64,000 nucleotides of DNA, from positions 35,484 through 99,483 of the forward strand of contig JAIXKI010000023.1 of assembly GCA_026936105.1 (NCBI GenBank), read 5' to 3'. Every line of letters begins with the position of its first letter. The stretch's first letter is position 1. The DNA is from Chitinophagales bacterium. Its GTDB lineage: Bacteria; Bacteroidota; Bacteroidia; Chitinophagales; Chitinophagaceae. This document shows, piece after piece, positions 1-15,235 of the stretch. Below the pieces are notes generated by a model. It did no database searches. It saw nothing but the letters and a program-made list of their open reading frames with translations, and had not been told where the DNA came from. Made by a program: the position numbers and the translations under genes.

Positions 1-5
1 AGAAT

Positions 6-2134
6 GTCGCAGTGGTTACAAACTAATTCCTCACTCTTATCCATTAAGTAATTAGGACTTCGCTACCTTAATGGTCGCAGTGGTTACAAACTAATTCCTC
101 ACTCTTATCATAATAATGATTATTTATTCTATTGGGAAAATGAAAGTCGCAGTGGTTACAAACTAATTCCTCACTCTTATTATCATGGATGATGGCATTG
201 GAGTCTTAGGCAAGTCGCAGTGGTTACAAACTAATTCCTCACTCTTATTGCTCTAACATTAGGAAAAGAGTGTTCGTTTCACAGTCGCAGTGGTTACAAA
301 CTAATTCCTCACTCTTATATCAACATTTACCGATTTGCAACGCCGTCAAATTGTCGCAGTGGTTACAAACTAATTCCTCACTCTTATTATTAAAGAAGTC
401 ATTTGAAGGTGACTACCCGGAAGTCGCAGTGGTTACAAACTAATTCCTCACTCTTATACGTAAGTGTCTCGCTTGTAGGAGACACAAAACTGTTGTCGCA
501 GTGGTTACAAACTAATTCCTCACTCTTATGCAGCAAATCATCAATCTGAATAAGAACATTGGATTGGTCGCAGTGGTTACAAACTAATTCCTCACTCTTA
601 TTTAATGCCCATGTAGTATATTGACCTTTTATAAGTCGCAGTGGTTACAAACTAATTCCTCACTCTTGTTACCGAATTTTATTATATGGATGGCACCCAT
701 TGGAAGTCGCAGTGGTTACAAACTAATTCCTCACTCTTATAGGAGAAAATGTTAGATAATCAGGAAGCCCAGGGACAGTCGCAGTGGTTACAAACTAATT
801 CCTCACTCTTATTCTCTGGACTTGAGCCTACTCCAAGCGAGTAGGATATGTCGCAGTGGTTACAAACTAATTCCTCACTCTTATAGAGAGAGGACGACTA
901 TCTCTCTGGTCTTGAGCGTCGCAGTGGTTACAAACTAATTCCTCACTCTTATCCAAAATATTTATGAGGAGAGGCAGAAATAGATGTCGCAGTGGTTACA
1001 AACTAATTCCTCACTCTTATTCATTATGACATTAGTGGCAATGATGTTGTTTGTCGCAGTGGTTACAAACTAATTCCTCACTCTTATTTAAGTTCTTCTC
1101 GAAGTTCGAGAAGAACAGAGTCGCAGTGGTTACAAACTAATTCCTCACTCTTATAGGACGATTACCTCTCTGGCCTTGAGCCCACTCCGTCGCAGTGGTT
1201 ACAAACTAATTCCTCACTCTTATACTCTATAAAGCCTCTGACAAAAGAGGAACAAGAGTCGCAGTGGTTACAAACTAATTCCTCACTCTTATAAAAAAAA
1301 CAAAAAAGCAAATGTATATTGACAACGTCGCAGTGGTTACAAACTAATTCCTCACTCTTATGAGAGGTAGGGAAAGCTAAAGGAGGCGATGACTTAGTCG
1401 CAGTGGTTACAAACTAATTCCTCACTCTTATATCCAATCGTTTGATATAGACACTTATCAGCGGGTCGCAGTGGTTACAAACTAATTCCTCACTCTTATG
1501 ATCTATTTTATTTTACCTTTGTAAAACTTTATGGATAGTCGCAGTGGTTACAAACTAATTCCTCACTCTTATCTCCACGAGCCCGGTGAAATTGTAGTAT
1601 CGGTGAAATAAGTCGCAGTGGTTACAAACTAATTCCTCACTCTTATCGTTCATAGTCAAGGGGTGGAATCTCCTTGTTAACAGTCGCAGTGGTTACAAAC
1701 TAATTCCTCACTCTTATTCTTCTCTTAAAAATGTATAGGGCCTGCCAAGACAGGTCGCAGTGGTTACAAACTAATTCCTCACTCTTATAATTAAAAACCA
1801 ATTAGTTATGATTACTACATTAAGTCGCAGTGGTTACAAACTAATTCCTCACTCTTATCTAAAAAAATAAAAAATCATGAAGATGTTCAATTGTCGCAGT
1901 GGTTACAAACTAATTCCTCACTCTTATCCCCCCGAAGATATCCAAAAGATGTTGGATAGTATTGTCGCAGTGGTTACAAACTAATTCCTCACTCTTATAA
2001 AAAAATATTTTCCTTACGACACATTGAAAGGTCGCAGTGGTTACAAACTAATTCCTCACTCTTATAATAAGAACAGAAGAGTGGCTGTCGAGGGCATAAG
2101 TCGCAGTGGTTACAAACTAATTCCTCACTCTTAT
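6..2134 (-). CRISPR. CRISPR array with 31 repeats and 30 spacers, truncated by the left window edge; belongs to the adjacent type III-D-like cas operon
   Basis: The 35-nt direct repeat GTCGCAGTGGTTACAAACTAATTCCTCACTCTTAT (as written on +) occurs 31 times, first at 6-40 and last at 2100-2134. Spacers are 32-39 nt and all different. The repeat at 635-669 has one substitution (CTTGT instead of CTTAT). Strand is set to minus for three reasons: the cas operon is on minus, the leader lies on the cas2 side, and the repeat read on minus ends in ACTGCGAC, close to the ATTGCGAC/ATTGAAAC 8-nt crRNA tags known from type III systems. Confidence 0.97.
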
Positions 2135-2217
2135 AGCATTCAATTGTGAATAGATTGAGTATGAGGGCCTTATATGTAAAAGAGCTGTAAATAATCCGGC
2201 TTTTTTCTGCATGGCCA
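2135..2217 (-). promoter_or_regulatory. Putative CRISPR leader between the cas2 stop and the first (newest) repeat
   Basis: An 83-nt non-coding, AT-rich stretch lies between the cas2 stop (2218-2220) and the repeat at 2100-2134. I could not recognise a clear Bacteroidota -7 TAnnTTTG box. Confidence 0.5.
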
Positions 2218-2532
2218 TTAAAAAACTTCTGTATGTTTTTCTCCCAGCAAATATTTCAAATCAGCTGCGAAGCTACCGATAATTTTCATATTCCGAAAGG
2301 ATGTTTTGCTGATAGCAAAGCTGATCAGTTTATCTTCGGGATATTCTCCGGTATCAGTAAACTTTTGCAGCCTTTTCCAAAGTTCTTTGTTCCTGTGCGG
2401 GGCCATCAACCCCGTAAATACCGAGTATTGTATCCTTTCGTAGCCCGATCGCTCCAACAATTTAGCTATTTTAGCACGCTTTTTATTATCTGAAATATCA
2501 TAGCTGATAAGAAAAATGTTTTTCTTATTCAT
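2218..2532 (-). CDS. cas2: CRISPR-associated endoribonuclease Cas2
   Basis: 104 aa. The N-terminal LISYDISDNKKRAKIAKLLERSGYERIQYSVF matches the Cas2 ferredoxin-fold signature (YDIs...R..v.k.L...G.riQ.SVF). Its ATG overlaps the cas1 stop (ATGA), and it lies next to the array. Confidence 0.93.
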   Translation of the reverse strand: MNKKNIFLISYDISDNKKRAKIAKLLERSGYERIQYSVFTGLMAPHRNKELWKRLQKFTDTGEYPEDKLISFAISKTSFRNMKIIGSFAADLKYLLGEKHTEVF

Positions 2533-3563
2533 GATTCAAAGTTTTTTTCAATTTGCTTTTTCAGGTCATAGGCCAATTGCAATATGTGGTTCTTCATGGC
2601 CGTAACACGGTTATCAAACTTCGTTTTTTCTTCCAGCCAATCATTGAAGAAAGGGATCAGTAAGCTTCTGCCTTTTTTGTTAAGAATATAGCCGTACTTC
2701 TCATTCGTTTCAAACCAATCGGGCTGAATAGTTTGCCGCATGATCAGCTGAGCCAGCAATTGGTCTGCTTTGGGCCGGAAAGGTTCAATTACATCAAAAG
2801 CCAATGACGGCGTTTGATATTCATTGGCGTGCCAGATACTTATCTGGCTGTCAAGTCCTGCACAGGCCAGTGCTGTTTCCACCTGGTGATAGAGCATGCC
2901 ATATATATAGTTAAGCATAGCATTAACAGCATCTCCGGCAGGCCTGTAGCTTCTTCCCTGCATGTTCCATCCTTCTGACTGTGCCATCAGGCTTACAACC
3001 TGCCAATAATATTTTGCATTATTGCCTTCCCAACCGCGCAACCATTGCAGAAATTGCTGCTCCTCGCTAATAATAAGGGATTTTTGCTCCAGGTTTTTAA
3101 CGGCCGTTATTATTTGCAGCATGCTGCTTTCAGCTACTTTTGCCAATGCAGTTTTCCTGTTTGCCCACCAGTTAATATTTTTTAACTGCCCTTCTGTTTT
3201 TAGCAAAAGCATCTGCATAATCCATTTTAATGATTCTTTGCTTTTTGAAAATTCATATTGCTTTTTGCGAAGATCGCTGTGCCCCGAAGACAAAACTGAA
3301 TTAATTCTGACAACCGGCTGGCCGATATGGTCAAGTAATATCAGCGGTATATTGTTTTCTGCAGCGAGGATCATGGCGCTGCTTGTAATATTTACTGCTT
3401 TGGTTATAAGAATGCTGCTGATGCGCTGCGGGCTGATGATCCTGTTAAGGGAATTTGATTCCACCTGGAAGCACCGGTTGCGCTGGCTTAGCTGAAGGCC
3501 GTAAGTGTTTAATACGAGTTGCATGTAGCAGGGTTTAAAATTTAATATAGCTGTTTGCTCCAT
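2529..3563 (-). CDS. cas1: CRISPR-associated integrase Cas1
   Basis: 344 aa. It carries the NAMLNYIYGML motif and the catalytic-region motif WHANEYQTPSLAFDVIEPFRPKAD (H....sL..D..EpfRp..D). It is translationally coupled to cas2 and starts 2 nt after the RT C-terminal ORF. Confidence 0.93.
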   Translation of the reverse strand: MEQTAILNFKPCYMQLVLNTYGLQLSQRNRCFQVESNSLNRIISPQRISSILITKAVNITSSAMILAAENNIPLILLDHIGQPVVRINSVLSSGHSDLRKKQYEFSKSKESLKWIMQMLLLKTEGQLKNINWWANRKTALAKVAESSMLQIITAVKNLEQKSLIISEEQQFLQWLRGWEGNNAKYYWQVVSLMAQSEGWNMQGRSYRPAGDAVNAMLNYIYGMLYHQVETALACAGLDSQISIWHANEYQTPSLAFDVIEPFRPKADQLLAQLIMRQTIQPDWFETNEKYGYILNKKGRSLLIPFFNDWLEEKTKFDNRVTAMKNHILQLAYDLKKQIEKNFES

Positions 3564-3565
3564 AT

Positions 3566-3889
3566 TCAGGAATAAGGAAAATCATTCCAGGAAAAACTTT
3601 CCGCAAAAGGTTTTGTATTGTAGGCATCGTCATACATGCTGCTCAGCCTCTTTACCACCGGATGCTGATGCCCATATACCATTTGCAAAAAGCGCAGTTT
3701 TCCCTGCAGGTGCTCTTCAAACTGGCCTATCCATTCGGCCGGTGTATGTCCTTTTGACACTGCTGAAAATTCCAGTACATGCTTGAAACGTTTCAGGTTG
3801 CTTTCCAGGTCGGTTAGGAAGGCTTCCGGCAGTACCGGCCTGTCTTTCAATATCAGCCCCGTAACCATTTTTTCATCCGATTCGCCCAT
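3566..3889 (-). CDS. C-terminal (motif 7 / thumb) part of the reverse transcriptase, separated from the N-terminal part by an in-frame TAG
   Basis: 107 aa. It begins ...MVTGLILKDRPVLPE (a VTG motif). It is in the same frame as 3893-4603; only TAG (3893-3895) and TGG (3890-3892) lie between the two ORFs. Confidence 0.75.
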   Translation of the reverse strand: MGESDEKMVTGLILKDRPVLPEAFLTDLESNLKRFKHVLEFSAVSKGHTPAEWIGQFEEHLQGKLRFLQMVYGHQHPVVKRLSSMYDDAYNTKPFAESFSWNDFPYS

Positions 3890-3892
3890 CCA

Positions 3893-4603
3893 CTATACCT
3901 TTTCCATGTTTATGGTAAATCCTTTTTTGCCGATCATATCCTGTATGGTATAGTACTGCTCAATGCTAATGGGTTGGTTGGCAGAAAAAGTAAGGTCATC
4001 CACGTAGCGGGAATATGTCATTTTGTTTTGCAGGGAGTAACTTAACAGATCTGCATCCAGTTCACGGGTGGCAAAATTGCTGAGCACCGGAGAGGTTGGG
4101 CTGCCCATGGGCAGCCTGCCATTATAAGTAGTAAACTCTGCCAAAAAGGAACTGAGTTCCGTATTGAACTGAAAAGGTGCAGAACGGAATATGCCGGCAA
4201 CACGCATGCGGCTTACCTGGTGAAAGAAATCTTTCAGGTCAATGTTCACCATGTACTTTCTGCCGCAATGTAGCCTGGCATTGGTAAGAATGTTCCTTTT
4301 CTTATTAGCGCTTTTGGGTTGCTGAATAAATCCATAAGCAGCCCGGCTGCGGCAAAAAAAATAAGCGGCCTGCAGGTGGTCATTGAGTTTTCGCAATGCC
4401 TTTTTAAGATCTTTTGCAGGCGCTTCTATCAACCGCTGCTTCCCTTTTTGTTTTCTGACCTCAAAAACAGAATAAGGCTTTTCCAAACGCAGTTTCAGGA
4501 GTTCCGGCAGGCCGGTTTGCAGCAAACCGGCCAGGTCTGAAATACTCTTTACCCTGCATAGCTGGTGGGAAAGGGCTGTCATGTGTTCCTTTGAAAAGGC
4601 CAT
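3893..4603 (-). CDS. Reverse transcriptase (RT motifs 1-6) with retron-like signatures, truncated by an in-frame TAG
   Basis: 236 aa. Motifs seen: ILTNARLHCGRKYMVNIDLKDFFHQV (NAxxH followed by the DxxDFF motif), LPMGSPTSPVLSNF, YSRYVDDLTFS (YxDD box) and GFTINMEKV (motif 6). It lies immediately upstream of cas1-cas2. Confidence 0.88.
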   Translation of the reverse strand: MAFSKEHMTALSHQLCRVKSISDLAGLLQTGLPELLKLRLEKPYSVFEVRKQKGKQRLIEAPAKDLKKALRKLNDHLQAAYFFCRSRAAYGFIQQPKSANKKRNILTNARLHCGRKYMVNIDLKDFFHQVSRMRVAGIFRSAPFQFNTELSSFLAEFTTYNGRLPMGSPTSPVLSNFATRELDADLLSYSLQNKMTYSRYVDDLTFSANQPISIEQYYTIQDMIGKKGFTINMEKV

Positions 4604-4742
4604 GCCATAGCTATTTCCCTGTTAAATTACCAACAGTTTTTAAGAAATGCAACTGCTGGTCCGCAATGTCAAAGAGCATTTGTTTTCAACTTTAATATAT
4701 AAAATACATTTTTATCATAAACTTTTTATTCCCCGTCACTTT

Positions 4743-5879
4743 TTACATTGCTTTAATAAAATTTTTCAGTACTTCATCATTTCCGATAATTTCAATGCCT
4801 GCCAGTCTAATGCCCAATAATTTAGCCCTGTCTTTTTGTTCAGCCTTTAGCTTCGAAAAATCGTTCAGGGCAAATAAATAGTAATTGACCCATAATCCAA
4901 ATTCTTTTTTAAGTGTTGCTGCTTTATAGATAGTATTAGTAAAAAGGTAGCTTATTTTACCGGCATCATTGTCTGCAATGTCAGTTTTACATTCTATTAC
5001 GTACAATGCATTATTGTGTGTAAAAATAATGTCGTACTCATTAGGAGCATTTCCTTTTATCAACTGTACTCCCAAGCCTATTGCATCATCACTTAAGCCA
5101 AGTATATTTTTTATTTTTGTATATATATATTCCTCAAGCCATTCGCCGGTAATATATTTTATTTCCTTTTCTGTAATCGAATCATCGTTCTCAAACATTA
5201 CTCCGTTTTCGGTAAAAATCATCGCCTCATGGAAAAGGGCTGTTTCAGCAGGCTTTTCCCTTCTCAATTTTTTACCCCTGAATTGCTTTCTTATTTTCTC
5301 TGCACAGGACAATAATTTTTCTTTCTGTTCTCCAATAAAGGCTTTAAACAGTGTTTCGGTCTGTGCTGCGGGTTTTAGTAAGGTGTTTTTTGAGCCAAAT
5401 GATTTTTCGGGCACACTAACTCCATACGACATCAGGTAATCTTTCAAATCCACCCGGAATAAAAGGGATTGAGTGCTGTTTTCCATTAAAGGGAATACCC
5501 GGTGAATTTCATTTTTTTCTATAGGAACATAAAATATTTCCGAATTGCTTTTTCCCGAAAAGTGAATATACACACCCAATGACATGATTTTTGTGCCGCC
5601 GGTGATATTTACCAGCACTTTATCTTCTTCATTTATATTTAATTCATCCGATAGTTTTGAATCAATATCGTGCAAAGAATCTTCAACTACTGTTACAATA
5701 CGGCACAGTTCTTTACGAATGCCCGCAGCATTAATAATATTATCAGTCATTTTTCTTTCAGGAGATTCCATTTTTTCTGTTGACAAAAAAATATACCTGT
5801 CGGCAACCTTTTGTTCTCTGATAAATAATACATTTTGAATAGCCTGATCGCTTACGATATTTACTATGATTCTACTCAT
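4743..5879 (-). CDS. card1: Card1/Can2-type effector: CARF sensor fused to a PD-(D/E)xK nuclease
   Basis: 378 aa. The N-terminus IVNIVSDQAIQNVLFI ... NITGGTKIMS resembles the DUF1887-type CARF. The C-terminus NEYDIIFTHNNALYVIECKT gives a D...ExK restriction-endonuclease-like motif. It lies inside the type III operon. Confidence 0.8.
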   Translation of the reverse strand: MSRIIVNIVSDQAIQNVLFIREQKVADRYIFLSTEKMESPERKMTDNIINAAGIRKELCRIVTVVEDSLHDIDSKLSDELNINEEDKVLVNITGGTKIMSLGVYIHFSGKSNSEIFYVPIEKNEIHRVFPLMENSTQSLLFRVDLKDYLMSYGVSVPEKSFGSKNTLLKPAAQTETLFKAFIGEQKEKLLSCAEKIRKQFRGKKLRREKPAETALFHEAMIFTENGVMFENDDSITEKEIKYITGEWLEEYIYTKIKNILGLSDDAIGLGVQLIKGNAPNEYDIIFTHNNALYVIECKTDIADNDAGKISYLFTNTIYKAATLKKEFGLWVNYYLFALNDFSKLKAEQKDRAKLLGIRLAGIEIIGNDEVLKNFIKAM

Positions 5880-5902
5880 ATTATATTTTAAAAAAGTAAG
5901 AT

Positions 5903-6634
5903 TTAAGTTCTGTATACCGTTCCAAATCCAATGCCCGGCACCTGGCCGATTCCTATGCCATCAGGTATATGCAGGTTGCAAAAAAATGTACAATCGAAAG
6001 GTAGTTTTTTTTCTTTATAAACCTGGATTAACTTTTTAGTAGCAAGAATAGAAGATACATAAGTAATAAAAGGGAAATTGTACCTGAATCCGGTACCGGC
6101 TATCATTGTATTAATTTGCCTTGAAAGACATTCATCAAGTAATTCTGCCAGTACTTTTAGTTCACCGGATGCCAAAAAAACTTTGTATCGATGTGAATCA
6201 AGCGGCAGCCAGTTTATTACTCTATACTGTTGCTTAATGGTTAGTAATTTAATCGTATGCTTTTCTAAAGGAAATGATTTGTATTCCGAGAGGTCAACAT
6301 AATTTTGCTTCGTTCTTAAAAATTTATTTTTTATATGCTTATTCTCCTCTTTATTGAGCAGTGCAAGAATTTCGTTCACTGCATTGATTCCCTCATTTAT
6401 AGCCAATAAAGCAGCTTTGCCTTTTACCGGCTTGAATTGGATAAGCGGGTAGCGTTTTATAGTGTCATTTGTTTCTTCACTTCGGTTATAAAAAAGCTCT
6501 GTATCAATTCCCTCAGTTTGCCCGGATTCTCTCAGATCATGAATAGCAGCGGAAAAAGTTTTTTTAAAATGCACTCCATCATTTTCTTCCAATGAAAAAT
6601 TAAAAACGGTCATTTGCGTATAGACAGTATGCAT
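5903..6634 (-). CDS. cas6: Cas6-like crRNA-processing endoribonuclease
   Basis: 243 aa. It has a C-terminal glycine-rich loop GIGIGQVPGIGFG (the GhGxxxxxGhG Cas6 hallmark), a typical Cas6 size, and lies within the cas operon. Confidence 0.7.
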   Translation of the reverse strand: MHTVYTQMTVFNFSLEENDGVHFKKTFSAAIHDLRESGQTEGIDTELFYNRSEETNDTIKRYPLIQFKPVKGKAALLAINEGINAVNEILALLNKEENKHIKNKFLRTKQNYVDLSEYKSFPLEKHTIKLLTIKQQYRVINWLPLDSHRYKVFLASGELKVLAELLDECLSRQINTMIAGTGFRYNFPFITYVSSILATKKLIQVYKEKKLPFDCTFFCNLHIPDGIGIGQVPGIGFGTVYRT

Positions 6635-6869
6635 ATTTAAACCAGGTTTAAAAAATAATTTAAAAAATCATCAGGTATTACGATATTATTATTACCTCTT
6701 GACAAATCCACAATGTCCATATAAAATGTATCATCTTTAATTTCATTAATTTAAGATGTTTTATCAGGATTTTCGAAGTAAGATAGCTATCAATTATTGC
6801 CAGATATTGAATTGCACTAAAGGTCTTTTTGCCATTTTTTTGTTTGTCTTTCGTTGGAAGATATAATAA

Positions 6870-7442
6870 TTACCTGTGATGCATTTGTAGAATATGTTTA
6901 TTAGGTTTACTTTTTTTTCCACCACAATCAACAAAGATGATGGTTTTCGATTTTTTTGTATTATTTATTTCTTCAATAACATTCTTTGCAAATTTGTCTG
7001 TAAACTTATTTTTATAGCGTATTTCTTTGATATACTGTTGTGATAAACTGCTTGCCCAAAGACCTTCTCCGTCCGGGCAGCCCTTTATAATAAAAATATT
7101 TTTATTGGTATAAGCAGAATTTTTCTGTAGCAGTTGTTTAAATAATGCATAAACAAATACGGATTTGCCGCAATCAGGAGGGCCAATAAAAGCAATAACA
7201 ATATTTTTTTGAGGCACCGGATAATATACCTCAAATGCTGATTTACTTATGAATGCATCGGGTGTATTCGTTGATATAATTTTAAGAGCACTATGATGCT
7301 TTGGATCGAAAGAAGCAATCCATTTAGCAGTATTTGCTTTTACAACTTTTTTATATAAAATAAGATACAACCCAATAGGACACCGCCTGTCAACAACTAT
7401 TCCTTTATTGCTGTTCATATTTCTTGGCAGAGAAATTGCCAA
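6870..7442 (-). CDS. csx3: Csx3 (Crn3 ring-nuclease)-like domain fused to a P-loop NTPase; the 5' end is uncertain (open frame continues to 7556)
   Basis: KGIVVDRRCPIGLYLILYKK...WIASFDPKHHSALKIIS resembles the Csx3 core (kGVVisGRgPiWL...vAvYDPrl.aVVV). It is followed by Walker A GPPDCGKS and Walker B IIFVDCGG. The annotated start is a TTG. A further 38 upstream in-frame codons are stop-free but contain no ATG, GTG or TTG. Confidence 0.6.
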   Translation of the reverse strand: MAISLPRNMNSNKGIVVDRRCPIGLYLILYKKVVKANTAKWIASFDPKHHSALKIISTNTPDAFISKSAFEVYYPVPQKNIVIAFIGPPDCGKSVFVYALFKQLLQKNSAYTNKNIFIIKGCPDGEGLWASSLSQQYIKEIRYKNKFTDKFAKNVIEEINNTKKSKTIIFVDCGGKKSKPNKHILQMHHR

Positions 7443-7551
7443 GGTTTCTTCTGTCTTTATTTTATCAGTTTTGAAGAATACTCCAGGGAAATCGTACTCA
7501 AGATCAGTAACCGGCAGGTTTAATATGATAGAATTATTGTCTATATGATTA

Positions 7552-7869
7552 TTATTTTATTCTTTTCAATAATCCAAATTTATACCCTATTGCTTCTATT
7601 TGATCAATTGAAGAAAGCACTTGCCCTTCTTTAATCCTTTTTTTCAGCTGAAATATTAAAGCTTCATCCCCAACATGTTGTTTATATTGATTTCTGTTCA
7701 TTGGTATTTCTACCTGCAGTAAGTTTGATAAGATATTGCAGGTGCTTTGATGACCTATATAGGAAACAAAATCGTTTTGAATTATTTTTTTTGCATCTTC
7801 AAGGGTAAGGTATTTATATTCATAAGTGCCATAGCAAGTAACGATAGATGTATTCAGTAAAGCCAGCAT
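7552..7869 (-). CDS. crn2: DUF1874-family protein (Crn2 / AcrIII-1-type cyclic tetra-adenylate ring nuclease)
   Basis: 105 aa. YIGHQSTCNILSNLL...MNRNQYKQHVGDEALIFQLKKRIKEGQVL parallels the SIGHDSTIQLINSL...KNRVEIKL...QISQRLEEGKIL core of the viral AcrIII-1/DUF1874 family. It is on the same strand and inside the cas operon. Confidence 0.72.
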   Translation of the reverse strand: MLALLNTSIVTCYGTYEYKYLTLEDAKKIIQNDFVSYIGHQSTCNILSNLLQVEIPMNRNQYKQHVGDEALIFQLKKRIKEGQVLSSIDQIEAIGYKFGLLKRIK

Positions 7870-7898
7870 TTTTTATATCTTATTTAATGAATAATATT

Positions 7899-9002
7899 TT
7901 AAGAAACATTCTCCTTTCTTTCTGTATAATCATGTGTTCCATAGTGGCGCAATATGAGAATATTACCATCTTTTGTGCAGGTGATTCTCATTTGCTGGTT
8001 AACTCTGAAATGGTATATACTCGTATTGCCTGAATAGGGCGTCAATTGTATTCCGCCACTAGATAATTTCTGAACGCCCCCGGTGCTTAATATTAATGAA
8101 ATAGATGCTAATAATTCCTGTATTTCTACCTTCTTCCTTTTATCGGTAAGTTTTTGAAAATCTTCTTTGAAACTCTGCTCATATTGTATGTTCGGAAGGA
8201 TTAATAAATCATCAGTCAAAACTTCACTTTTAATATTATTCCACGACAGAAGTCCCCAATTTGAAAGTCCGTAAACATGATCCCATAATTCAAGAAACAA
8301 TGTTTGAGGCAGGTTTGATATTTTATCTTTGGGTTGGTAATGATCATTTCCTAATAGTGTAAATAACAAAGCATTTTGTTTGAACAAATACTTATCAATG
8401 GAAACAGGTAATTTGGGTATTTCAATCAATCCGCCGCTTTCAAAAATATAAACTATCCGGTCTGCATAAAAAGTTCCAAAAGTATTTAAAAAACCCTGCA
8501 GGCTTTTAAAGCCGCCTGTCAGATTGAAAATTACTTCATACCGGCTTTCTCTATATTCAGGAATTGTATTATCAAGATATTCTAAGAGGTTTTTTATGCC
8601 TTTATCGAAATTGGATTTGGATTCAGTATTCAATTCCGGTACAGAATAAGAAATACATTGATGCCCTTTTTCTTTAATATACTGACTTACAATATCCATA
8701 GTTACTGCAGCTAAAAAAGTATCTGTACCAATTAATAAATGAATATCAGAGGCACTGTCGTTGTACTTATCGTAATAACTTAAAATTCCATTTAGTTCAG
8801 CACTGTAAGATTTGGCAATGCCATCATCGCCGGTCAGTAATGTTTTTATTAAAGTAGTTTTCAGTTCTTCTATTCGATTTTTAAATTGAACTGGAATTTC
8901 ATGTTCTTTCTTATTGGAGAAATCAATTATTTCATTTCTGAAAGCTTCATCTGCTTTTTTAGTAAGCAGGCTTGTGCCAATGGATGAAAGGATAACCTTC
9001 AT
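7899..9002 (-). CDS. CARF-RelE fusion (Cami1-like cOA-activated mRNA interferase)
   Basis: 367 aa. The N-terminal CARF carries SSIGTSLL and NLTGGFKSLQG. The C-terminal IYHFRVNQQMRITCTKDGNILILRHYGTHDY matches the RelE/ParE toxin signature (lRvGdyRiiy....i.il.v.hR). Confidence 0.75.
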   Translation of the reverse strand: MKVILSSIGTSLLTKKADEAFRNEIIDFSNKKEHEIPVQFKNRIEELKTTLIKTLLTGDDGIAKSYSAELNGILSYYDKYNDSASDIHLLIGTDTFLAAVTMDIVSQYIKEKGHQCISYSVPELNTESKSNFDKGIKNLLEYLDNTIPEYRESRYEVIFNLTGGFKSLQGFLNTFGTFYADRIVYIFESGGLIEIPKLPVSIDKYLFKQNALLFTLLGNDHYQPKDKISNLPQTLFLELWDHVYGLSNWGLLSWNNIKSEVLTDDLLILPNIQYEQSFKEDFQKLTDKRKKVEIQELLASISLILSTGGVQKLSSGGIQLTPYSGNTSIYHFRVNQQMRITCTKDGNILILRHYGTHDYTERKENVS

Positions 9003-9022
9003 AAGAATTATTTATAAGCTTC

Positions 9023-11098
9023 TTATTTAACAACATCGGTAGGTTCGGGTAGTACAGGTCGATTTTTATATTCATTAAGCTTAGTACCCTGCTCGCCATT
9101 ATAGTAGGGAGATTCAGAAGGCGGTTTAACTTCTATTTCCATATATCTTGTCCTGTCTAACCAGGCCTCTCCTGTCACATTATCCTGCTTAAATTGCAGC
9201 ATGGTTTTGAGTTGTTTCAGGCGTGGCACTTCCCAAAGGGATTTTGCATTGTTTTTTTCTTTGTCAGTCAGTTTGCTTAAAACGTAGGTTTCAAACTGGA
9301 TTTTAAAGTCGTTTGTACTCTTATCTTTTTGCTCCGACAAAAACCATTTACTATTACCATCAAATATTTTTTTATAACGTTCCTGCCTGTCTGATAAAAC
9401 AAGCGTAGGCTCAATTTGCACAGAGCCTAAGCCAAGTGGTTTACCCATGCCGAGTTTGTGGCAATATTTTTCTTTTTCATTTTCTTTGGGCAATTCCAGC
9501 ACAAAAAGCAGGCAGCCGAGTTCTTCGGTGCTGAGGTTTTCGAAGCGGATTTTTGATTTAAAAAGAACATTCTCTTTTACGGGTATTATTGTGCCTGGAT
9601 GACTTTTTGTTTTTATGCCTGACTTTTCTACCCATGAATACGGTGCCTGGTTATCATGCGGTGTCTTTCTATGCCAATACAATTTGCTGCCCCTAATAAG
9701 TGCTTCTTTATCATTCCAATGTTTAAGCTGCTTTAACGGCGTGCCTGTTTTAAAAGGCTGTTCCAAATAATGCTGAAAAGTAGTAGGCTTGGGGGAAGAT
9801 AGAATTTTGGGTTGATACGGTGAACCTGGAAGTTTCCACTCAGTTTCTTCAGTATTTGCATCTTCAAAAAATACCCGTGAGGCAAATTCTTTCCTTTCAT
9901 CCTTTGACTTATCATCAGGCTTCTGACTTTTCTCTTTTAAAAACCCGAAAATAGCTTCCGCCATATCAAGTGTATATTTCCTGTGTTCCAAGGGCAGGTG
10001 GTCTTTTACTGAATAGTCATAAGGTATGCGGTATCTTTCTGTATGCCCGAAAGAAATGATTGTACCGCCCTTTGCAAAATAGAAAACCGGTATGCCGTCA
10101 TCTTTGAATTTATCTTCACGGTGCAATTTTTCAATTACATCATAATATTGATTTTCGTTCTTTCCTTTTTCATATTTTTTTGCATCAGTTTCGTCATTTA
10201 TATAGGCTTTAATAACCTCTTCGTCAACTAAAAAAGGCTTAACTTTTACGTCCGGTAACTCAAACAAATAATGGTGATACTTGTTATTCATCATGCCTGT
10301 ATAAACTTTCCATCCTTTCTCAACTTTTTCATACGTGAACTTCTTTTCAGAATAATTGTGATCTTCAAACCTTGAAGCTTTTACAGGTCGGATATAATAC
10401 CTATCCTCATTCTTCTTATGGAATAAATACCCATGAAGGATGTCATCGTGGTTGACTGGTACTTTTTTATTGTACAACTCTTTCAGGCTACTCCTGTCTG
10501 CCATTCCTCTTTGTGAGAATCTTTTATCATCGCTAAATCCAAGCTTAGAATAACTCACAATTTCTGCCAGCGTTCTTATCATTCCCCTCAAAGAACTTCC
10601 CGGTATAACAGGCTGTTCGTTTATAACGAAAAAATTTTCCATTTCGCCTCTTATAAATAAAGGCGTTTTTGTTGTAATGTTTAAATCAATATAGCCCGTA
10701 TATCTATTATCATAATATTTATCAAAATCCGGAATATCCTGTGCCGGAATTACTGTTTCGTTTAACGGCACAAAATTGTATGGCGCCCTTGCGGGGTCTT
10801 GAATGTTTTTTCGTGAATCTGGCACAGCACTAGATTGGCGTTGCTGGTTATGGCGTTGACCTTGATATTGTGTCTGGTGTTGTTGCTGTGAACGTTGTGG
10901 TTGGCCTTGCTTTTTTACATAATCTTTCCCTTCAAACCTGATAAGTTTCACAGGCCCGCCGTTGTTATCGAATTCAATTTCTTTCCCATTCATATCATCG
11001 GTTAATCCAAAATCGCCCATAACGGGCATTGGATTTTTAATGCCATCACCGGTAATTTTCCATGTATTTTTTTCTTTAATTAGTTTTCCTTTTTTCAT
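9023..11098 (-). CDS. Large RAMP (Cas7-like with insertions, TIGR03986-like) carrying an extra N-terminal domain and a Gln-rich linker
   Basis: 691 aa. It has the APYNFVPL start motif of the TIGR03986 RAMP family at aa ~105, the IPGSSLRGMIRTL RAMP motif, and the C-terminal glycine loop KLGMGKPLGLGSVQIEP. Residues 1-104 are additional. Confidence 0.72.
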   Translation of the reverse strand: MKKGKLIKEKNTWKITGDGIKNPMPVMGDFGLTDDMNGKEIEFDNNGGPVKLIRFEGKDYVKKQGQPQRSQQQHQTQYQGQRHNQQRQSSAVPDSRKNIQDPARAPYNFVPLNETVIPAQDIPDFDKYYDNRYTGYIDLNITTKTPLFIRGEMENFFVINEQPVIPGSSLRGMIRTLAEIVSYSKLGFSDDKRFSQRGMADRSSLKELYNKKVPVNHDDILHGYLFHKKNEDRYYIRPVKASRFEDHNYSEKKFTYEKVEKGWKVYTGMMNNKYHHYLFELPDVKVKPFLVDEEVIKAYINDETDAKKYEKGKNENQYYDVIEKLHREDKFKDDGIPVFYFAKGGTIISFGHTERYRIPYDYSVKDHLPLEHRKYTLDMAEAIFGFLKEKSQKPDDKSKDERKEFASRVFFEDANTEETEWKLPGSPYQPKILSSPKPTTFQHYLEQPFKTGTPLKQLKHWNDKEALIRGSKLYWHRKTPHDNQAPYSWVEKSGIKTKSHPGTIIPVKENVLFKSKIRFENLSTEELGCLLFVLELPKENEKEKYCHKLGMGKPLGLGSVQIEPTLVLSDRQERYKKIFDGNSKWFLSEQKDKSTNDFKIQFETYVLSKLTDKEKNNAKSLWEVPRLKQLKTMLQFKQDNVTGEAWLDRTRYMEIEVKPPSESPYYNGEQGTKLNEYKNRPVLPEPTDVVK

Positions 11099-11618
11099 TG
11101 TCAGAATTTTTTATTGCAAATTCAACAAATCTACTATCTACATAGCCCGCCTGCCGAATATCATCGGTATAACCAATATAGTTACGGGTTCTAAGAAATA
11201 TATCTTCCGAATTAAACTTCTCATTGTTTTTTAAAGGATGGGCAATAACGCTTCGAAGTTTCATATCGGTTTCTATATATTCCATTTCCTTACCCGCATC
11301 ATCTGTTCTTAATCTGCCTTTTAATTCGTTGCCGCTTCGCCAGATATGAATTTCTTTTGTCTCAGTAAAAGCCCGTATGCGAACGATATTATCTTTTTTA
11401 ATTTCTTCTTCCGAATAAACTTGTTTGTTTTTTTTTGAATCGTATAACCAGCTGACTTTTTTGTTTTTGACCTCTCCTACAAATACGCCATGATGCTGCC
11501 AGAGAACGATGTACCCTTCTTTAATTTCTTCAGCTACTACCACAATAGAGGTATAGTTATACTCTACTGAATTACTCTTAATAGGTTTTGCAACATATCT
11601 TGTTCCTTCTTTACTCAT
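11076..11618 (-). CDS. csx19: Small cas-operon protein, possibly Csx19 (call based on position only)
   Basis: 180 aa. It lies between two Cas7-type genes, as csx19 does in type III-D loci. It overlaps the downstream gene by 23 nt. I recognise no motif directly. Confidence 0.4.
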   Translation of the reverse strand: MSKEGTRYVAKPIKSNSVEYNYTSIVVVAEEIKEGYIVLWQHHGVFVGEVKNKKVSWLYDSKKNKQVYSEEEIKKDNIVRIRAFTETKEIHIWRSGNELKGRLRTDDAGKEMEYIETDMKLRSVIAHPLKNNEKFNSEDIFLRTRNYIGYTDDIRQAGYVDSRFVEFAIKNSDNEKRKTN

Positions 11619-11619
11619 T

Positions 11620-13083
11620 TTATTCAGTTTTCAGGTTGTTAATAAATGTTTGTTCCCACTCAGTAATTGTTGGCAATAAATCCTGCTTTTTAAATGTTAT
11701 TATTCCATTTTCACCGGCTTCTATTACCAATTGTTTTCCACCATAATTCACGGTGGCATGCCTGCCGGTAAGGATACCCCTGCCAATGCTTTTTTCCCCG
11801 CCTATAGGCAGGTCGGCAGTCCACAGGTCTTTCAGCAAATGCAGCAACAGCAAAGCATCAGTTTCTTTAAATTCTTTGCCGGAGAGAGCAAAATCTAAGA
11901 TCAGTTTGCCTTCTTCCCCGTTTTTGTTTTTCCACAATGGCTTGGAATTGAATAAAGCCCCGCTCATAGTGCCGCCGGTAAACCTGTCAATTTTTATCCG
12001 GTTTTGCGTCATTCCTTTTCCTGCAATATAGTTTTCTTCCACCCGGAGTTTTCCCCGAATTTCATCTTTTTCCTGATTTTGATTTTCTACATATCCAAAC
12101 AGTTCTTTTATCTTTTCTTCTGCATTGTCTATTGGCAGTGTATTGAGTATTTTCAATGCCCTGTGCCTGATAGCGCCTCTGACGGATTTGCCTGTTAATA
12201 CATTTTTGCTGTTGCTTTTCAAATGTGTTTTATCGGGTTCCTTAGCATCAATGCCGTAAGCCCCAATAATGATGGAATTTTTAATGCCGAATTCTGCATA
12301 AATATTAAATGATTTCAAAGGACATTTTATTTCTGAAATCTTTATACTTTCGAAACCAGGTCTTATATCATAGTACTCTTTTTCCCATACACATCTTTCC
12401 TCCAATGCTTTCAAATATGTAAACCATTCTTCCGAACGATTTAATTTTTTGTCTGAAAAATCAAAATACCAGGCATTGAAACCGGAGCATTGAATTTTAC
12501 CAAAGCCTGTATTGGTTTGTGCACCAATCCTGAAACTATCATCGTTTAAAATGGCTGATATGTAACTAATGTATTCCTCAAAAATCTTAGGATTGCTTAT
12601 TACTTTTCTTACGGTTACTTCCGCTCTTAGATTAAAAGTAATTTCCGGTTCCAGCAACTCGTAATCGTACTTTGCCTTTTTTTCTGTGATGCCGGTTTTG
12701 TAATCAATTTTTATCCCATCCCGCCGGGTTATTTTATTTTTAGTATCACAAGTGGTAAGCAGATCGTCTATTACAAAATGGCATTGATATTGGTCCGGGT
12801 CGGGTTTCCCGTTAATTTTTTTCTGCCCTGTACCCCAAAAAAACTTTGCTTCTTTTGTCTTCATTTTAGTTTCACCATACCATTCTGCAAAATGCTGTTT
12901 TAAAACGCCGGCGAAAGTAGATGCAGGAATGTAGGGCTTTCCATCAGGAAGGCGCATTATTTCAATATCTGCAACATCACCTATACCTTTACCAATAAGC
13001 ACAGGTGTTAATGTTTTTATTTCGGCATGTATTATGTATCTGCCGATTATCTTATGTTGTTCTTTATATAAGCAATCACCCAT
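11620..13083 (-). CDS. Double RAMP protein (Cas7-Cas7 fusion, Csm3/Cmr4-like)
   Basis: 487 aa. The first RAMP has TPVLIGKG...GKPYIPASTFAGVLKQ. The second has LTGKSVRGAIRHRALK, KIDRFTGGTMSGALF and IGGEKSIGRGIL. Confidence 0.78.
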   Translation of the reverse strand: MGDCLYKEQHKIIGRYIIHAEIKTLTPVLIGKGIGDVADIEIMRLPDGKPYIPASTFAGVLKQHFAEWYGETKMKTKEAKFFWGTGQKKINGKPDPDQYQCHFVIDDLLTTCDTKNKITRRDGIKIDYKTGITEKKAKYDYELLEPEITFNLRAEVTVRKVISNPKIFEEYISYISAILNDDSFRIGAQTNTGFGKIQCSGFNAWYFDFSDKKLNRSEEWFTYLKALEERCVWEKEYYDIRPGFESIKISEIKCPLKSFNIYAEFGIKNSIIIGAYGIDAKEPDKTHLKSNSKNVLTGKSVRGAIRHRALKILNTLPIDNAEEKIKELFGYVENQNQEKDEIRGKLRVEENYIAGKGMTQNRIKIDRFTGGTMSGALFNSKPLWKNKNGEEGKLILDFALSGKEFKETDALLLLHLLKDLWTADLPIGGEKSIGRGILTGRHATVNYGGKQLVIEAGENGIITFKKQDLLPTITEWEQTFINNLKTE

Positions 13084-15235
13084 TATTCTCCTCCTTTAAT
13101 TTTTTAAGTTTTCTAAGCATCCTGAAGAAAGTAAGCCAATAAATTGTATCATGGTCATCGTCAAACATAAATTTATGGTCTCTATTAACAAGCCCAACTT
13201 TTGACAATTTCTCGCCTGCAGGTTTCCCCATAGTATCTTTTATCCAGTTTTGCACTTCGGCTCCGGTTGCTTTCGTTTCAATCATTCTTTCCATCCGGCC
13301 TATAAGATGGTTGCTTAAATCAAGGTATTTTTTTTGTTGAGCATCTTTTATCGCATTGGCCTTCTTGCTGGTATTCTTTTCAACTTGTTTGTATTGGGCC
13401 AGAATGTCATCAAGTATTTTAACAGACGCATTATTTCCCGTTGGTTTATTTCCTTCTGCTTCGTGTTTTTTAAAGATGTCAATAGCTTTATACGATTCAA
13501 AGCGGATTTTACCAAAACCCTGTTCCTTGTATTCACCTAAGCCTTCTTTGGTTGCTTTTTGAATAGCGGTTTCAATATCTGTTGCACTCTTTAAATTAAG
13601 AACAAAAGCACTACCTTCTTTGTAAGCCGGCATCTTTGACGATTTGGATTGCCATACGGCATTGTATTGTTCTACAGTAGTAAAGGCTGCTGCAACGTCA
13701 AGAGTTTTAGTTTCTCCATTTTCCACAAATCCAGCCAATGAAAAATATTTTTTTAATTCCGTTAGTAAATTTTTGCCGTTTGCCTCCGCTTCACCATACT
13801 CATTAAGAAGAATCAAAGGGGTTTCCAATATCAATAAATATGTATTGGAGGAATTAGCATTATTGGTATCCGCTCCAATATTTCCCTTCATTCCTAACCC
13901 ATTGCTATTGGAATTATTAGTTGTTTCTGTTTCTTTAAAGACTAATTCTACTTCGCCATATTGTGCGGAACGGCTGCGCCCAATCTGTAATTTTATTTTG
14001 TTGCCAATCGTTTGAACCAATTTGTTTAACAACTTTACGTCACCTTTAATTTTTCCCAAAAAGACTTGTTCTTCGTCAAGTGCTTCATAATAAAAAATAC
14101 TACCGCCTTCTTTTTCTTCTTCCAGGCTTTTTCCTGCTGAACGATTGGGCCTTGAATTATGGAAGAAAAAAGTTGTGTGGGGCTTTGAAATTAATATATT
14201 ACTGCCGTTAATTGTGCCAAAGCCTCCTTCCGGCTTGGTAATTTCATCTTTTTTGTCTTCAGGCTTCTTAAAAACATTCACTAAATCGTCTTCCGCTTTT
14301 TTATTTTTATACTTATGAATATGCAGTGGCAAAGGAGTAGAGCCATTATAGTATAATGATTCAAAGGAAACTTTACCGGATAAAAAAATATTGAAGAAAG
14401 AATCATCTTTATGTGCATTTTTAAAGGTAAGAGCCGCCTGCTTGATGTATTGAGAGGCAAGTAAGCCCCGCAACCGGTTGCCGCTGATTATTTTTTCAGT
14501 AAATACAGTATTTTTTTCTCCCAACTGCTGCGATAAAACTACGGGTGATAGTGTCCTTATTTCTATATCTATTGTGTCACTGTTTGCTTCAAAATCTTTC
14601 CCTAATTCATTAGAGGAAGAAAAATCAATACTACATTTAATTTTTCCAAATCCCCTGTTACGTCTTGTGCCTGCATACCGGAAATTTAAGACAGCCTCAT
14701 TAAACAACTCCTTCTCTTCTTGTTCCAGCGGTTCATTTTCACCAATATTTCCTTCAAATATCAATGGCTTAGTTTCATTTTTATTAAAAAGAAATGATTT
14801 TATAACCCTGTAATTTCGGAGGCTTGTTGGCTTTGCAATCCCATTCACAATAGCAGTTTGTTGAATTTCTGTTGTATAGAACTGTTTTATATTTTCATCG
14901 GAATACACAAACGGATTTTTTTCCATTTTATCAGGTAATGCCTGTTTAACATTCTCCCAATCCTGGACATAAAAATTTCTAAACCCAAGCTTACCTTCAT
15001 TTTGTTCAGCGCCTTCTTTTCCAAAGAGAGTATTTACTTTTTTGCATATCTCTGTTTCATCATATCCTTTCATCTCCATTACTTCAAAAAGGTTTTCTTT
15101 TAGTAAGCCTTTTACTCTCCTGCCAGGCAGATAAGGAAAGCCGGTTTTGTGAAACACAATATCTGTATCAATCAGACTACCTCCTTCACCCGAACCTGCC
15201 AGCATGTATGATTGAAGTGTAATTTTCAGTTTCAT
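13076..15235 (-). CDS. csx10: Fusion of a Cas7-like RAMP, a Csx10 (Cas5-like) RAMP and a helical C-terminal tail (possible Cas11-like small subunit)
   Basis: 719 aa. Domain 1 has LAGSGEGG..FPYLPGRRVKGLLKE ... RNRGFGKIK. Domain 2 has IRTLSPVVL...IISGNRLRGLLASQ ... GRSRSAQYGEVEL ... EQGFGKIRF. The last ~110 aa are predicted helical from composition. Start and stop overlap the neighbouring genes. Confidence 0.68.
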   Translation of the reverse strand: MKLKITLQSYMLAGSGEGGSLIDTDIVFHKTGFPYLPGRRVKGLLKENLFEVMEMKGYDETEICKKVNTLFGKEGAEQNEGKLGFRNFYVQDWENVKQALPDKMEKNPFVYSDENIKQFYTTEIQQTAIVNGIAKPTSLRNYRVIKSFLFNKNETKPLIFEGNIGENEPLEQEEKELFNEAVLNFRYAGTRRNRGFGKIKCSIDFSSSNELGKDFEANSDTIDIEIRTLSPVVLSQQLGEKNTVFTEKIISGNRLRGLLASQYIKQAALTFKNAHKDDSFFNIFLSGKVSFESLYYNGSTPLPLHIHKYKNKKAEDDLVNVFKKPEDKKDEITKPEGGFGTINGSNILISKPHTTFFFHNSRPNRSAGKSLEEEKEGGSIFYYEALDEEQVFLGKIKGDVKLLNKLVQTIGNKIKLQIGRSRSAQYGEVELVFKETETTNNSNSNGLGMKGNIGADTNNANSSNTYLLILETPLILLNEYGEAEANGKNLLTELKKYFSLAGFVENGETKTLDVAAAFTTVEQYNAVWQSKSSKMPAYKEGSAFVLNLKSATDIETAIQKATKEGLGEYKEQGFGKIRFESYKAIDIFKKHEAEGNKPTGNNASVKILDDILAQYKQVEKNTSKKANAIKDAQQKKYLDLSNHLIGRMERMIETKATGAEVQNWIKDTMGKPAGEKLSKVGLVNRDHKFMFDDDHDTIYWLTFFRMLRKLKKLKEENNG

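What the first reader, a model, noticed from the sequence alone, without database searches (positions are those of the whole stretch)
3566..4603. Stand-alone RT next to cas1 carries retron-type motifs rather than group II intron-type motifs
The RT upstream of cas1-cas2 is not fused to Cas1 or Cas6. It shows NAxxH (LTNARLH) directly before NIDLKDFF, RYVDDLTFS as the catalytic box, and VTGLIL after motif 6. As I recall the families, NAxxH and VTG are diagnostic of retron RTs, whereas most CRISPR-associated RTs are of group II intron ancestry. The stop of the RT C-terminal ORF lies 2 nt from the cas1 start, which argues for functional coupling with the adaptation module. This would be an independent recruitment of a retron-lineage RT into CRISPR adaptation, or alternatively a retron-like defence gene lodged in the operon.
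Basis: partly seen in the sequence, partly recalled or inferred. Interest (0 to 1): 0.68.

Follow-up and report, generated by a model that had tools for sequence, protein, structure and literature searches.

The report
Retron-derived CRISPR reverse transcriptase, broken copy
The gene next to cas1 is a retron-type reverse transcriptase from an already described small clade recruited into type III CRISPR adaptation modules, and this copy is cut in two by a premature stop codon.

Summary
Window 3566-4603 (minus strand) encodes a 345-codon stand-alone RT with NARLH, NIDLKDFF, YVDD and VTG, ending 2 nt before cas1. It matches retron RT models at E about 1e-72, against 6e-11 for group II intron RT. 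In the PDB it hits retron RTs at 1e-28 to 1e-24, against 6e-5 for Cas6-RT-Cas1. It is not an independent retron. A covariance model of the msr/msd RNA of the nearest true retrons (DnaB_C-linked, type XI-like) finds held-out positives at 72-110 bits. It finds nothing in the window or in 25 cas1-linked relatives. All cas1-linked RTs form one clade (NJ bootstrap 0.91-0.95). That clade contains the Haliscomenobacter hydrossis RT, published in 2017 as a retron-like CRISPR-associated RT. RT and Cas1 distances covary (r = 0.88). Intact homologs have K, Q, N, C or R there. The TAG appears in three separate sequencing runs. This copy is probably inactive, or at best a two-piece enzyme. It is a new member of a known kind, of low to moderate interest.

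The parts
3893..4603 (-). RT N-terminal ORF (236 aa). It holds fingers and palm, motifs 1-6, with NARLH at 4268-4282, NIDLKDFF at 4223-4246 and YVDD at 3995-4006. It ends at the in-frame TAG.
3893..3895 (-). In-frame TAG nonsense codon between RT motif 6 (INMEK) and motif 7 (VTG). Intact homologs have K, Q, N, C or R at this column.
3566..3889 (-). RT C-terminal ORF (107 aa) in the same frame. It starts at the conserved Met of 'WMG', 3 nt after the TAG. It holds VTG (3857-3865), the thumb, and the clade-specific C-terminal tail ending ...SWNDFPYS.
2529..3563 (-). cas1 (344 aa). Its start lies 2 nt after the RT stop.
2218..2532 (-). cas2 (104 aa). It overlaps cas1 by 4 nt.
2135..2217 (-). Probable CRISPR leader. 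It contains the box GCTCTTTTACAT at 2174-2185, 39 nt before the first repeat.
6..2134 (-). CRISPR array of 31 repeats of 35 nt (GTCGCAGTGGTTACAAACTAATTCCTCACTCTTAT as read on the + strand) with 30 spacers of 32-39 nt. It reaches the edge of the window.
4626..4677 (-). Conserved element upstream of the RT: box GCTCTTTGACATTGCGGA followed by a 9-bp hairpin. It is shared, with compensatory stem changes, by the closest relatives. It is probably a promoter or regulatory site and does not match msr/msd.
4743..9002 (-). Type III accessory genes upstream in the same orientation: card1 (4743-5879), cas6b (5903-6634), csx3-AAA (6870-7442), B116-like (7552-7869) and Csx1/APE2256-like (7899-9002).
9023..16833 (-). 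Type III effector module (III-D-like): three large RAMP fusion proteins, a Csx19-like gene (11076-11618) and a small Cas10 (15232-16833).

Best explanation
This is the adaptation module of a type III (III-D-like) CRISPR-Cas locus in a Chitinophagales bacterium. Its stand-alone RT belongs to the small, already described clade of CRISPR-associated RTs that descend from retron RTs, not from group II intron RTs. [quoted passage not shown] The CRISPR-linked branch lost that RNA and its effector and became fixed beside cas1-cas2. The usual order is cas6b / CARF effector - RT - cas1 - cas2; a minority have cas1-cas2-RT. By analogy with characterised RT-Cas1 systems, I infer that the intact enzyme copies invader RNA into DNA that Cas1-Cas2 integrates at the leader end of the array. 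This suits an RNA-targeting type III effector. Because there is no msr branch-G primer, priming must differ from that of retrons. It may use the 3' OH exposed during integration, or de novo or snap-back priming. That step is pure inference. In this genome the RT carries a recent nonsense mutation (AAG or CAG to TAG) between motifs 6 and 7. Full-length RT is therefore most likely not made, and adaptation, if active, probably relies on Cas1-Cas2 alone.
For: Retron lineage. PADLOC gives RT-TIR_XII, RT-Protease_XI and RT-Toprim_I-C at 1e-72 to 1e-64. NCBIfam retron models score 1e-60 to 1e-47, against group II RT at 6e-11. PDB phmmer gives retron RTs Kva2 1e-28, Ec67 3e-24 and Ec86 1e-23, against group II maturase 6e-6 and Cas6-RT-Cas1 (7kft) 6e-5. 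N108, A109, H112, T248 and G249 are invariant among 26 family members.

CRISPR coupling. cas1 lies next to the RT in L001-13, 15-18, 20, 21, 23, 53, 56, 84, 85, 87, 89-93. The cas1-linked RTs form one NJ clade with bootstrap 0.945 and 0.91. RT versus Cas1 distances give r = 0.88, with 0 of 2000 Mantel permutations reaching it.

Known clade. The H. hydrossis DSM 1100 RT (P0219) is 40% identical over the full length. It sits in an RT-cas1-DUF1016-cas2 locus and falls inside the clade. PMC5541045 calls that RT retron-like, and PMC8632793 and PMC11014452 cite a retron-derived CRISPR-RT clade.

Loss of msr/msd. Model R1, built from 23 DnaB_C-linked loci with 17 of 20 pairs showing compensatory changes, recovers 5 held-out positives at 72-110 bits. 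It gives nothing above chance in the window or in 25 cas1-linked loci. Rfam gives no hit. At least five relatives have under 60 nt on both sides of the RT (L004, L010, L012, L013, L020), and in L007 the upstream gene overlaps the RT start.

Nonsense codon. The TAG sits at a K/Q/N/C/R column. The RT DNA is identical in three Logan runs. TAG terminates two other long ORFs in the window. The close relatives P0001, P0003 and P0007 are intact in the same gene order.
Against: No experiment has shown RNA-derived spacer acquisition, or any other activity, for this clade, so the function rests on synteny and analogy. Everything downstream of the TAG is intact and conserved: there are no frameshifts, and dN/dS against P0001 is about 0.12. 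The conserved Met codon 3 nt after the TAG could allow re-initiation. Inactivation is therefore not proven. Synonymous sites are saturated against the nearest relative, so the age of the mutation cannot be estimated. My tree is neighbour-joining on 274 columns, not maximum likelihood, and contains no group II or Abi outgroups. I could not read Toro et al. 2019 itself. Equating this clade with 'clade 14' rests on the H. hydrossis link and on secondary citations.
Confidence: 0.8

Rival explanations
1. The RT is still functional in this genome. It is either made as two polypeptides (fingers/palm of 236 aa plus motif-7/thumb of 107 aa, re-initiated at the ATG 3 nt after the TAG) that reassemble, or made by occasional TAG read-through.
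For: The C-terminal ORF is complete and conserved, with VTG, the GKLRFLQMVYG block and the W..FPY tail. Its start is the family-conserved Met of 'WMG'. The allele is fixed in three sequencing runs. TAG is the rarest stop codon here, 3 of 36 long ORFs. cas1, cas2 and the 31-repeat array look intact.
Against: None of the full-length family members examined is split at this site. The break falls between motifs 6 and 7 at the palm-thumb junction, so neither piece alone should polymerise (general RT knowledge). An intact downstream ORF is equally expected after a recent nonsense mutation. The same locus shows other small lesions: indels at the 3' end of csx3-AAA differ between assemblies.
Confidence: 0.17
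2. It is an independent retron defence system (RT plus msr/msd plus effector) that merely landed inside a CRISPR-Cas defence island. This is how a 2026 preprint read the few Cas-adjacent loci of its TXI_noncan_h lineage.
For: The RT keeps the retron hallmarks NAxxH and VTG. Its nearest non-CRISPR relatives are true retrons with a DnaB_C partner and an ncRNA. bioRxiv 10.64898/2026.05.14.725207 interprets the Cas neighbours as defence-island context.
Against: No msr/msd RNA was found by a model that recovers held-out sister retrons. No DnaB_C or other retron effector lies next to the RT. The RT is packed tightly between cas6b or a CARF effector gene and cas1 in many genera. The cas1-linked RTs are monophyletic and covary with Cas1.
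Confidence: 0.03
3. The in-frame TAG is a sequencing or assembly error and the gene is really intact.
For: The window comes from a metagenome-assembled genome (P0004 is named as a Chitinophagales MAG protein).
Against: The same 236-aa product and identical RT DNA occur in three independently assembled runs, SRR29092744, SRR29243423 and SRR29243421.
Confidence: 0.03
4. It is a diverged member of the group II intron-like CRISPR RTs.
For: Most CRISPR-associated RTs belong to those clades: 13 of 15 according to PMC8632793.
Against: Group II RT and Cas6-RT-Cas1 score 50-60 and about 24 orders of magnitude worse than retron RTs, respectively. The retron-specific NAxxH and VTG motifs are present.
Confidence: 0.01

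Closest known systems
Retron-derived CRISPR-associated RTs ('clade 14' of Toro et al. 2019, RNA Biol 16:1486; type example Haliscomenobacter hydrossis DSM 1100)
   Same: Both are stand-alone RTs of about 345 aa with NAxxH and VTG, sitting immediately next to cas1-cas2 in a type III locus of Bacteroidota. The window RT is 40% identical over the full length to the H. hydrossis RT and falls in the same NJ clade.
   Different: This copy has an in-frame TAG. It lacks the DUF1016/YhcG nuclease gene that lies between cas1 and cas2 in H. hydrossis and some relatives. It belongs to a distinct subclade (with P0001, P0003, P0007 and P0013) that has its own conserved upstream box and hairpin.
DnaB_C-associated, protease-less type XI-like retrons ('TXI_noncan_h', bioRxiv 10.64898/2026.05.14.725207)
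   Same: This is the nearest non-CRISPR RT group, at 30-38% identity. It shares the retron motifs and a Bacteroidota host range.
   Different: Those RTs have a DnaB_C-like gene and a 140-170 nt a1/a2-flanked ncRNA upstream of the RT. The window and all cas1-linked loci have neither.
Canonical retrons (Ec86/Eco1, Ec67/Eco2, Kva2 and others)
   Same: They share the RT fold family and the regions X (NAxxH) and Y (VTG). These are the best PDB sequence matches.
   Different: The window has no msr/msd and no toxin or effector partner. The neighbours are Cas1 and Cas2. msDNA production is untested.
Group II intron-like CRISPR RTs (Marinomonas mediterranea RT-Cas1, Thiomicrospira Cas6-RT-Cas1)
   Same: They have the same genomic role, an RT inside the adaptation module of a type III system. 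They are the working model for RNA spacer acquisition (PMC11014452).
   Different: The RT has a different ancestry (E = 6e-5 against 1e-28). It is not fused to Cas1 or Cas6. Its biochemistry is unknown.
Abi-P2-like CRISPR RTs ('clade 15', type I-C)
   Same: They are another independent recruitment of a non-group-II RT to a CRISPR locus (PMC8632793).
   Different: They have a different RT lineage and a different CRISPR type.

Membership tests
Retron (complete system) | RT with retron-specific region X (NAxxH) and region Y (VTG) | tested here: met
   NARLH and VTG are present and invariant in the family. Retron RT HMMs are the best hits. The motif definition comes from PMC7736814.
Retron (complete system) | Adjacent msr/msd ncRNA flanked by a1/a2 inverted repeats | tested here: not met
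   CM R1, built from sister retrons, finds held-out positives at 72-110 bits. It finds nothing in the window (best 19.7 bits, inside an effector gene; 9 bits within 2000-7000 with filters off) or in cas1-linked loci. Rfam gives no hit. A strongly diverged RNA cannot be fully excluded.
Retron (complete system) | Cognate effector or accessory protein next to the RT | tested here: not met
   The neighbours are card1 upstream and cas1-cas2 downstream. No DnaB_C, protease, TIR or Toprim partner is present.
Retron (complete system) | msDNA synthesis primed from a branch G 2'-OH | not testable with these tools
   This needs nucleic-acid extraction from cells or in vitro assays.
Retron-derived CRISPR-associated RT clade (Toro clade 14) | RT phylogenetically within the retron / retron-like group | tested here: met
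Retron-derived CRISPR-associated RT clade (Toro clade 14) | Gene adjacent to and co-oriented with cas1-cas2 in a type III locus | tested here: met
   There is a 2-nt gap to cas1 and a type III effector module upstream. Synteny is conserved in relatives.
Retron-derived CRISPR-associated RT clade (Toro clade 14) | Clusters with the published member (H. hydrossis RT) | tested here: met
   The two are 40% identical with E = 8e-84. They share an NJ clade with bootstrap 0.84 (23 members) and 0.91 (32 members). I assume that P0219 is the published GI 332661943, because it is the RT next to cas1 in CP002691.1. I could not check the Toro 2019 sequence list.
Retron-derived CRISPR-associated RT clade (Toro clade 14) | Intact, translatable RT gene | tested here: not met
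   An in-frame TAG lies at 3893-3895.
Retron-derived CRISPR-associated RT clade (Toro clade 14) | RT-dependent spacer acquisition from RNA | not testable with these tools
   The papers searched contain no experimental report for this clade.
Group II intron-like CRISPR RTs (RT-Cas1 and relatives) | RT domain closest to group II intron RTs | tested here: not met
   TIGR04416 scores 6e-11 and 42 bits against a cutoff of 300. PDB 6me0 scores 6e-6 and 7kft 6e-5.

The most novel reading that the evidence does not exclude
The retron-derived CRISPR RT has dropped msr/msd but keeps regions X and Y under purifying selection, so it would use a priming or template-recognition mode not seen in retrons or in RT-Cas1. 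In this genome it would also work as a naturally split enzyme, with palm and thumb translated separately by stop-restart at TAG-TGG-ATG.
Probability: 0.12. Interest if true: 0.6.

Novelty: new member of a known kind. Interest (0 to 1): 0.3.

Why it matters
Retron-derived CRISPR RTs are a documented but experimentally untouched second route to an RT-assisted adaptation module. This analysis supports three points. The association is a stable operon, not a defence-island coincidence. It arose once, beside DnaB_C-type retrons. It involved loss of the msr/msd RNA. That makes the clade a clean test of whether a retron RT can work without its RNA primer. The copy in this window is a poor experimental candidate because it carries a nonsense codon. 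The intact homologs in the cultured strains Haliscomenobacter hydrossis DSM 1100 and Phaeodactylibacter xiamenensis KD52 are better candidates.

Tried and rejected
1. msr/msd search. I looked for an msr/msd RNA in 4604-4742 and across the locus. Rfam gave no hit on 1-20000 at E <= 1. A purpose-built CM from sister retrons gave nothing above chance with default filters or with filters off. Folding of 4590-4760 gave z = -1.9 only.

2. Vestigial msr idea. The conserved box plus hairpin upstream of the RT shares 'TGACATTGCGG + hairpin' with one sister retron (L022). I did not adopt this reading for three reasons. The sister consensus is loose at those positions. The CM scores the site at 4.9 bits. 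The same box also occurs in CRISPR leaders, which fits a promoter or regulator site better.

3. Dating the nonsense mutation. dN/dS against the nearest relatives has no power because dS is saturated at 1.3-1.7 or more.

4. Other split members. P0012, P0015 and P0113 are short because of start calls or contig ends, not because of splits at the same site.

5. Alternative genetic code. I rejected this. TAG ends two other long ORFs, and the other cas genes have no in-frame TAG.

6. Spacer targets. No spacer matches elsewhere in the window. The tiled-spacer consensus gave no exact hit in IMG/VR.

7. Toro et al. 2019. PMC6779382 is not held, so I relied on secondary citations.

Full report
**What is there**

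The first 16.8 kb of the window is one type III CRISPR-Cas locus, all on the minus strand.
- Effector module, 9023-16833: three large RAMP fusions, a Csx19-like gene and a small Cas10, so III-D-like.
- Ancillary genes: Csx1/APE2256-like, B116-like, csx3-AAA, cas6b and card1.
- A 139-nt gap, then the RT (3566-4603), cas1 (2529-3563) and cas2 (2218-2532).
- An 83-nt leader and a CRISPR array of 31 repeats of 35 nt that reaches the window edge.

**Observation check**

They are NARLH at 4268-4282, NIDLKDFF at 4223-4246, YVDD at 3995-4006 and VTG at 3857-3865. The RT stop lies 2 nt from the cas1 ATG.

The two ORFs are in the same frame and are split by a single in-frame TAG (3893-3895) followed by TGG ATG.

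**Lineage of the RT**

Profile searches are unambiguous.
- PADLOC retron RT models (RT-TIR type XII, RT-protease type XI, RT-Toprim type I-C) score E = 1e-72 to 1e-64.
- NCBIfam retron models score 1e-60 to 1e-47. They fall below their curated cut-offs, as expected for models that include fused effector domains. The group II intron RT/maturase model scores 6e-11.
- Against solved structures, retron RTs Kva2, Ec67 and Ec86 score 1e-28 to 1e-23. A group II maturase scores 6e-6 and Thiomicrospira Cas6-RT-Cas1 scores 6e-5.

Mestre et al. 2020 (PMC7736814) define NAxxH (region X) and VTG (region Y) as the retron RT hallmarks. In an alignment of 26 family members, N108, A109, H112, T248 and G249 are invariant.

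**Is it a retron or part of the CRISPR module?**

A scan of one genome per species returned 80 related loci. I mapped their neighbours with tblastn and found three groups.
- The closest relatives have cas1, and usually cas2, next to the RT. The order is RT-cas1-cas2 in L001-13, L015, L020, L021, L053 and L056. It is cas1-cas2-RT in L016-18 and L023.
- The next 28 loci have a DnaB_C-like gene about 200 nt upstream of the RT.
- More distant relatives are long fused RTs.

Closer metagenomic homologs (P0001 at 79%, P0002, P0003, P0006, P0007 and P0013) all show the order type III effector - B116-like and/or csx3 - cas6b - CARF or other ancillary effector - RT - cas1 - cas2, where the contig extends that far. 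P0010 has the RT convergent with cas1 and cas2.

In a neighbour-joining tree (274 columns, 200 bootstraps), all cas1-linked RTs in both gene orders form one clade, together with one short contig of unknown context. Support is 0.945, and 0.91 after adding further sequences. Pairwise RT and Cas1 distances over 25 loci correlate at r = 0.88, and none of 2000 Mantel permutations reached that value. The association with Cas1 is therefore old, single-origin and co-inherited. It is not a chance landing in a defence island.

**The msr/msd test**

The DnaB_C-linked sister loci carry an obvious retron ncRNA between DnaB_C and the RT.
- Its a1/a2 inverted repeats are GAGCCGTTG...CAACGGCTC, covarying to ACTGCCGG/CCGGCAGT or CTAGTGCA/TGCACTAG.
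- It also has a TATGAG motif, a conserved hairpin, a variable msd stem, AGATAAT and a T-run.
- In the RNAalifold consensus, 17 of 20 pairs show compensatory changes.

A covariance model built from 23 of these loci found the five DnaB_C loci I had held out, at 72-110 bits. It found nothing above chance in 21 cas1-linked loci, nor in the window. The best window hit was 19.7 bits at E = 0.056, inside an effector gene. With filters off over 2000-7000, the best hit was 9 bits. It also found nothing in H. hydrossis or the closest relatives. Rfam gave no hit.

At least five relatives have under 60 nt on both sides of the RT (L004, L010, L012, L013, L020). In L007 cas6b overlaps the RT start. A classical adjacent ncRNA has no room there. 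The CRISPR-linked branch has retron ancestry but is not a retron.

**Already known**

Toro et al. 2017 (PMC5541045) identified the CRISPR-adjacent RT of Haliscomenobacter hydrossis as retron/retron-like, with the VTG motif. Reviews state that Toro et al. 2019 defined a CRISPR-RT "clade 14" of retron origin linked to type III systems (PMC8632793; PMC11014452; PMC8934634).

I recovered the H. hydrossis DSM 1100 protein (P0219). Its locus is RT-cas1-DUF1016/YhcG-cas2. It is 40% identical to the window RT over the full length and lies inside the cas1-linked clade.

A 2026 preprint (10.64898/2026.05.14.725207) describes the DnaB_C lineage and its candidate ncRNA. It treats the few Cas-adjacent loci as defence-island context. 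My data argue instead that those loci are the separate, ncRNA-less CRISPR clade.

**The nonsense codon**

At the TAG column, intact homologs have K, Q, N, C or R. One substitution from AAG or CAG is enough to produce it. The site lies between motif 6 (INMEK) and motif 7 (VTG), at the palm-thumb junction.
- The RT DNA is identical in three independently assembled runs and in the NCBI MAG protein P0004.
- TAG ends two other long ORFs in the window.
- None of the full-length family members examined is split at this site.
- The downstream 107 codons are intact and conserved. However, dS to the nearest relative is saturated, so this says only that the mutation is recent relative to that divergence.

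I consider inactivation the most likely state, at about 0.6-0.65. A working two-piece or read-through enzyme is a minority possibility at about 0.17. Indels at the 3' end of csx3-AAA that differ between assemblies hint at some decay or heterogeneity in the locus.

**Mechanism: shown and inferred**

Shown:
- retron-lineage RT with intact catalytic motifs;
- an operon with cas1-cas2 in a type III locus;
- a single origin and covariation with Cas1;
- no msr/msd RNA;
- a premature stop in this copy.

Inferred by analogy with RT-Cas1 systems (PMC11014452): in intact members the RT converts invader RNA into DNA, or completes RNA-primed integration intermediates, for Cas1-Cas2. Without the msr branch G, priming must differ from that of retrons. 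The continued conservation of regions X and Y suggests the enzyme still recognises a specific nucleic-acid partner.

**Verdict**

This is a new, damaged member of a known kind. Interest is 0.3.

Noticed in passing
window 4626-4677 (-) and 2174-2185 (-); L084 9936, L085 7855, L090 2923, L091 2926, L093 2932, L008 9901, L013 9928, L021 9468; leaders of L003, L007, L010, L020: A conserved box, G[CT]TCTTTGACAT, lies 50-145 nt upstream of the RT start in 7 of 28 cas1-linked loci and at the predicted start in 2 more (9 of 28 in all; expected 0.4). It also lies just after cas2, in the CRISPR leader, in 5 of 24 loci (expected 0.4). In the window's subclade it is followed by a hairpin whose stem changes by compensatory substitutions. 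It is probably a shared promoter or regulator site for the array and the adaptation operon.
   Followed up: partly
window 813-849, 885-917, 1155-1188: Spacers 12, 13 and 17 tile one target region of about 55 nt on the same strand, with a few nucleotide differences. This means repeated acquisition from variants of one target. No spacer matches elsewhere in the window, and a degenerate consensus of the region shared by spacers 12 and 17 had no exact IMG/VR hit.
   Followed up: partly
L019, L022, L024-L055 (28 loci), e.g. L022 3879-4046: The nearest non-CRISPR relatives of the RT pair with a DnaB_C-like gene. They carry a well-supported 140-170 nt msr/msd-type RNA with covarying a1/a2 repeats. 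This matches the 'TXI_noncan_h' lineage of a 2026 preprint.
   Followed up: yes
L089 12320-13198 (H. hydrossis), L003 2885-3811, L004 6235-7182, L020 12094-12963, L001 12751-13749: A DUF1016/YhcG-type PDDEXK nuclease gene sits between cas1 and cas2 (downstream of cas1 in L001, where no adjacent cas2 was detected) in one subclade of these RT-CRISPR loci. It may be a Cas4-like adaptation accessory. It is absent from the window.
   Followed up: no
window 6775-6888 compared with L081: The window and a Logan assembly of the same strain differ by several 1-2 nt indels at the 3' end of the csx3-AAA gene. The ORF is 190 aa here, 222 aa as called there, and 297-305 aa for Csx3 in relatives. The gene may be decaying or heterogeneous. 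Single-base differences also occur at 4621, 6872 and 7935.
   Followed up: partly
L092 (P0010 locus): One family member has the RT convergent with cas1 - BT4734-like_N protein - cas2, next to a CARF-RelA/SpoT gene. This is a different arrangement of the same module.
   Followed up: no
window 4743-9002: The locus stacks several cyclic-oligoadenylate-related genes: Card1, a Csx1/APE2256-like protein with a weak RelE-like C-terminal hit, Csx3 fused to an AAA/P-loop domain, and a B116-like protein. This suggests layered signalling and ring-nuclease control.
   Followed up: no
window 635-669: There is a single variant repeat in mid-array (…CTCTTGT instead of …CTCTTAT). Read on the minus strand, the repeat ends in …ACTGCGAC. 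From memory this resembles the Thermus type III 5' tag. It is consistent with minus-strand transcription from the cas2-proximal leader.
   Followed up: no
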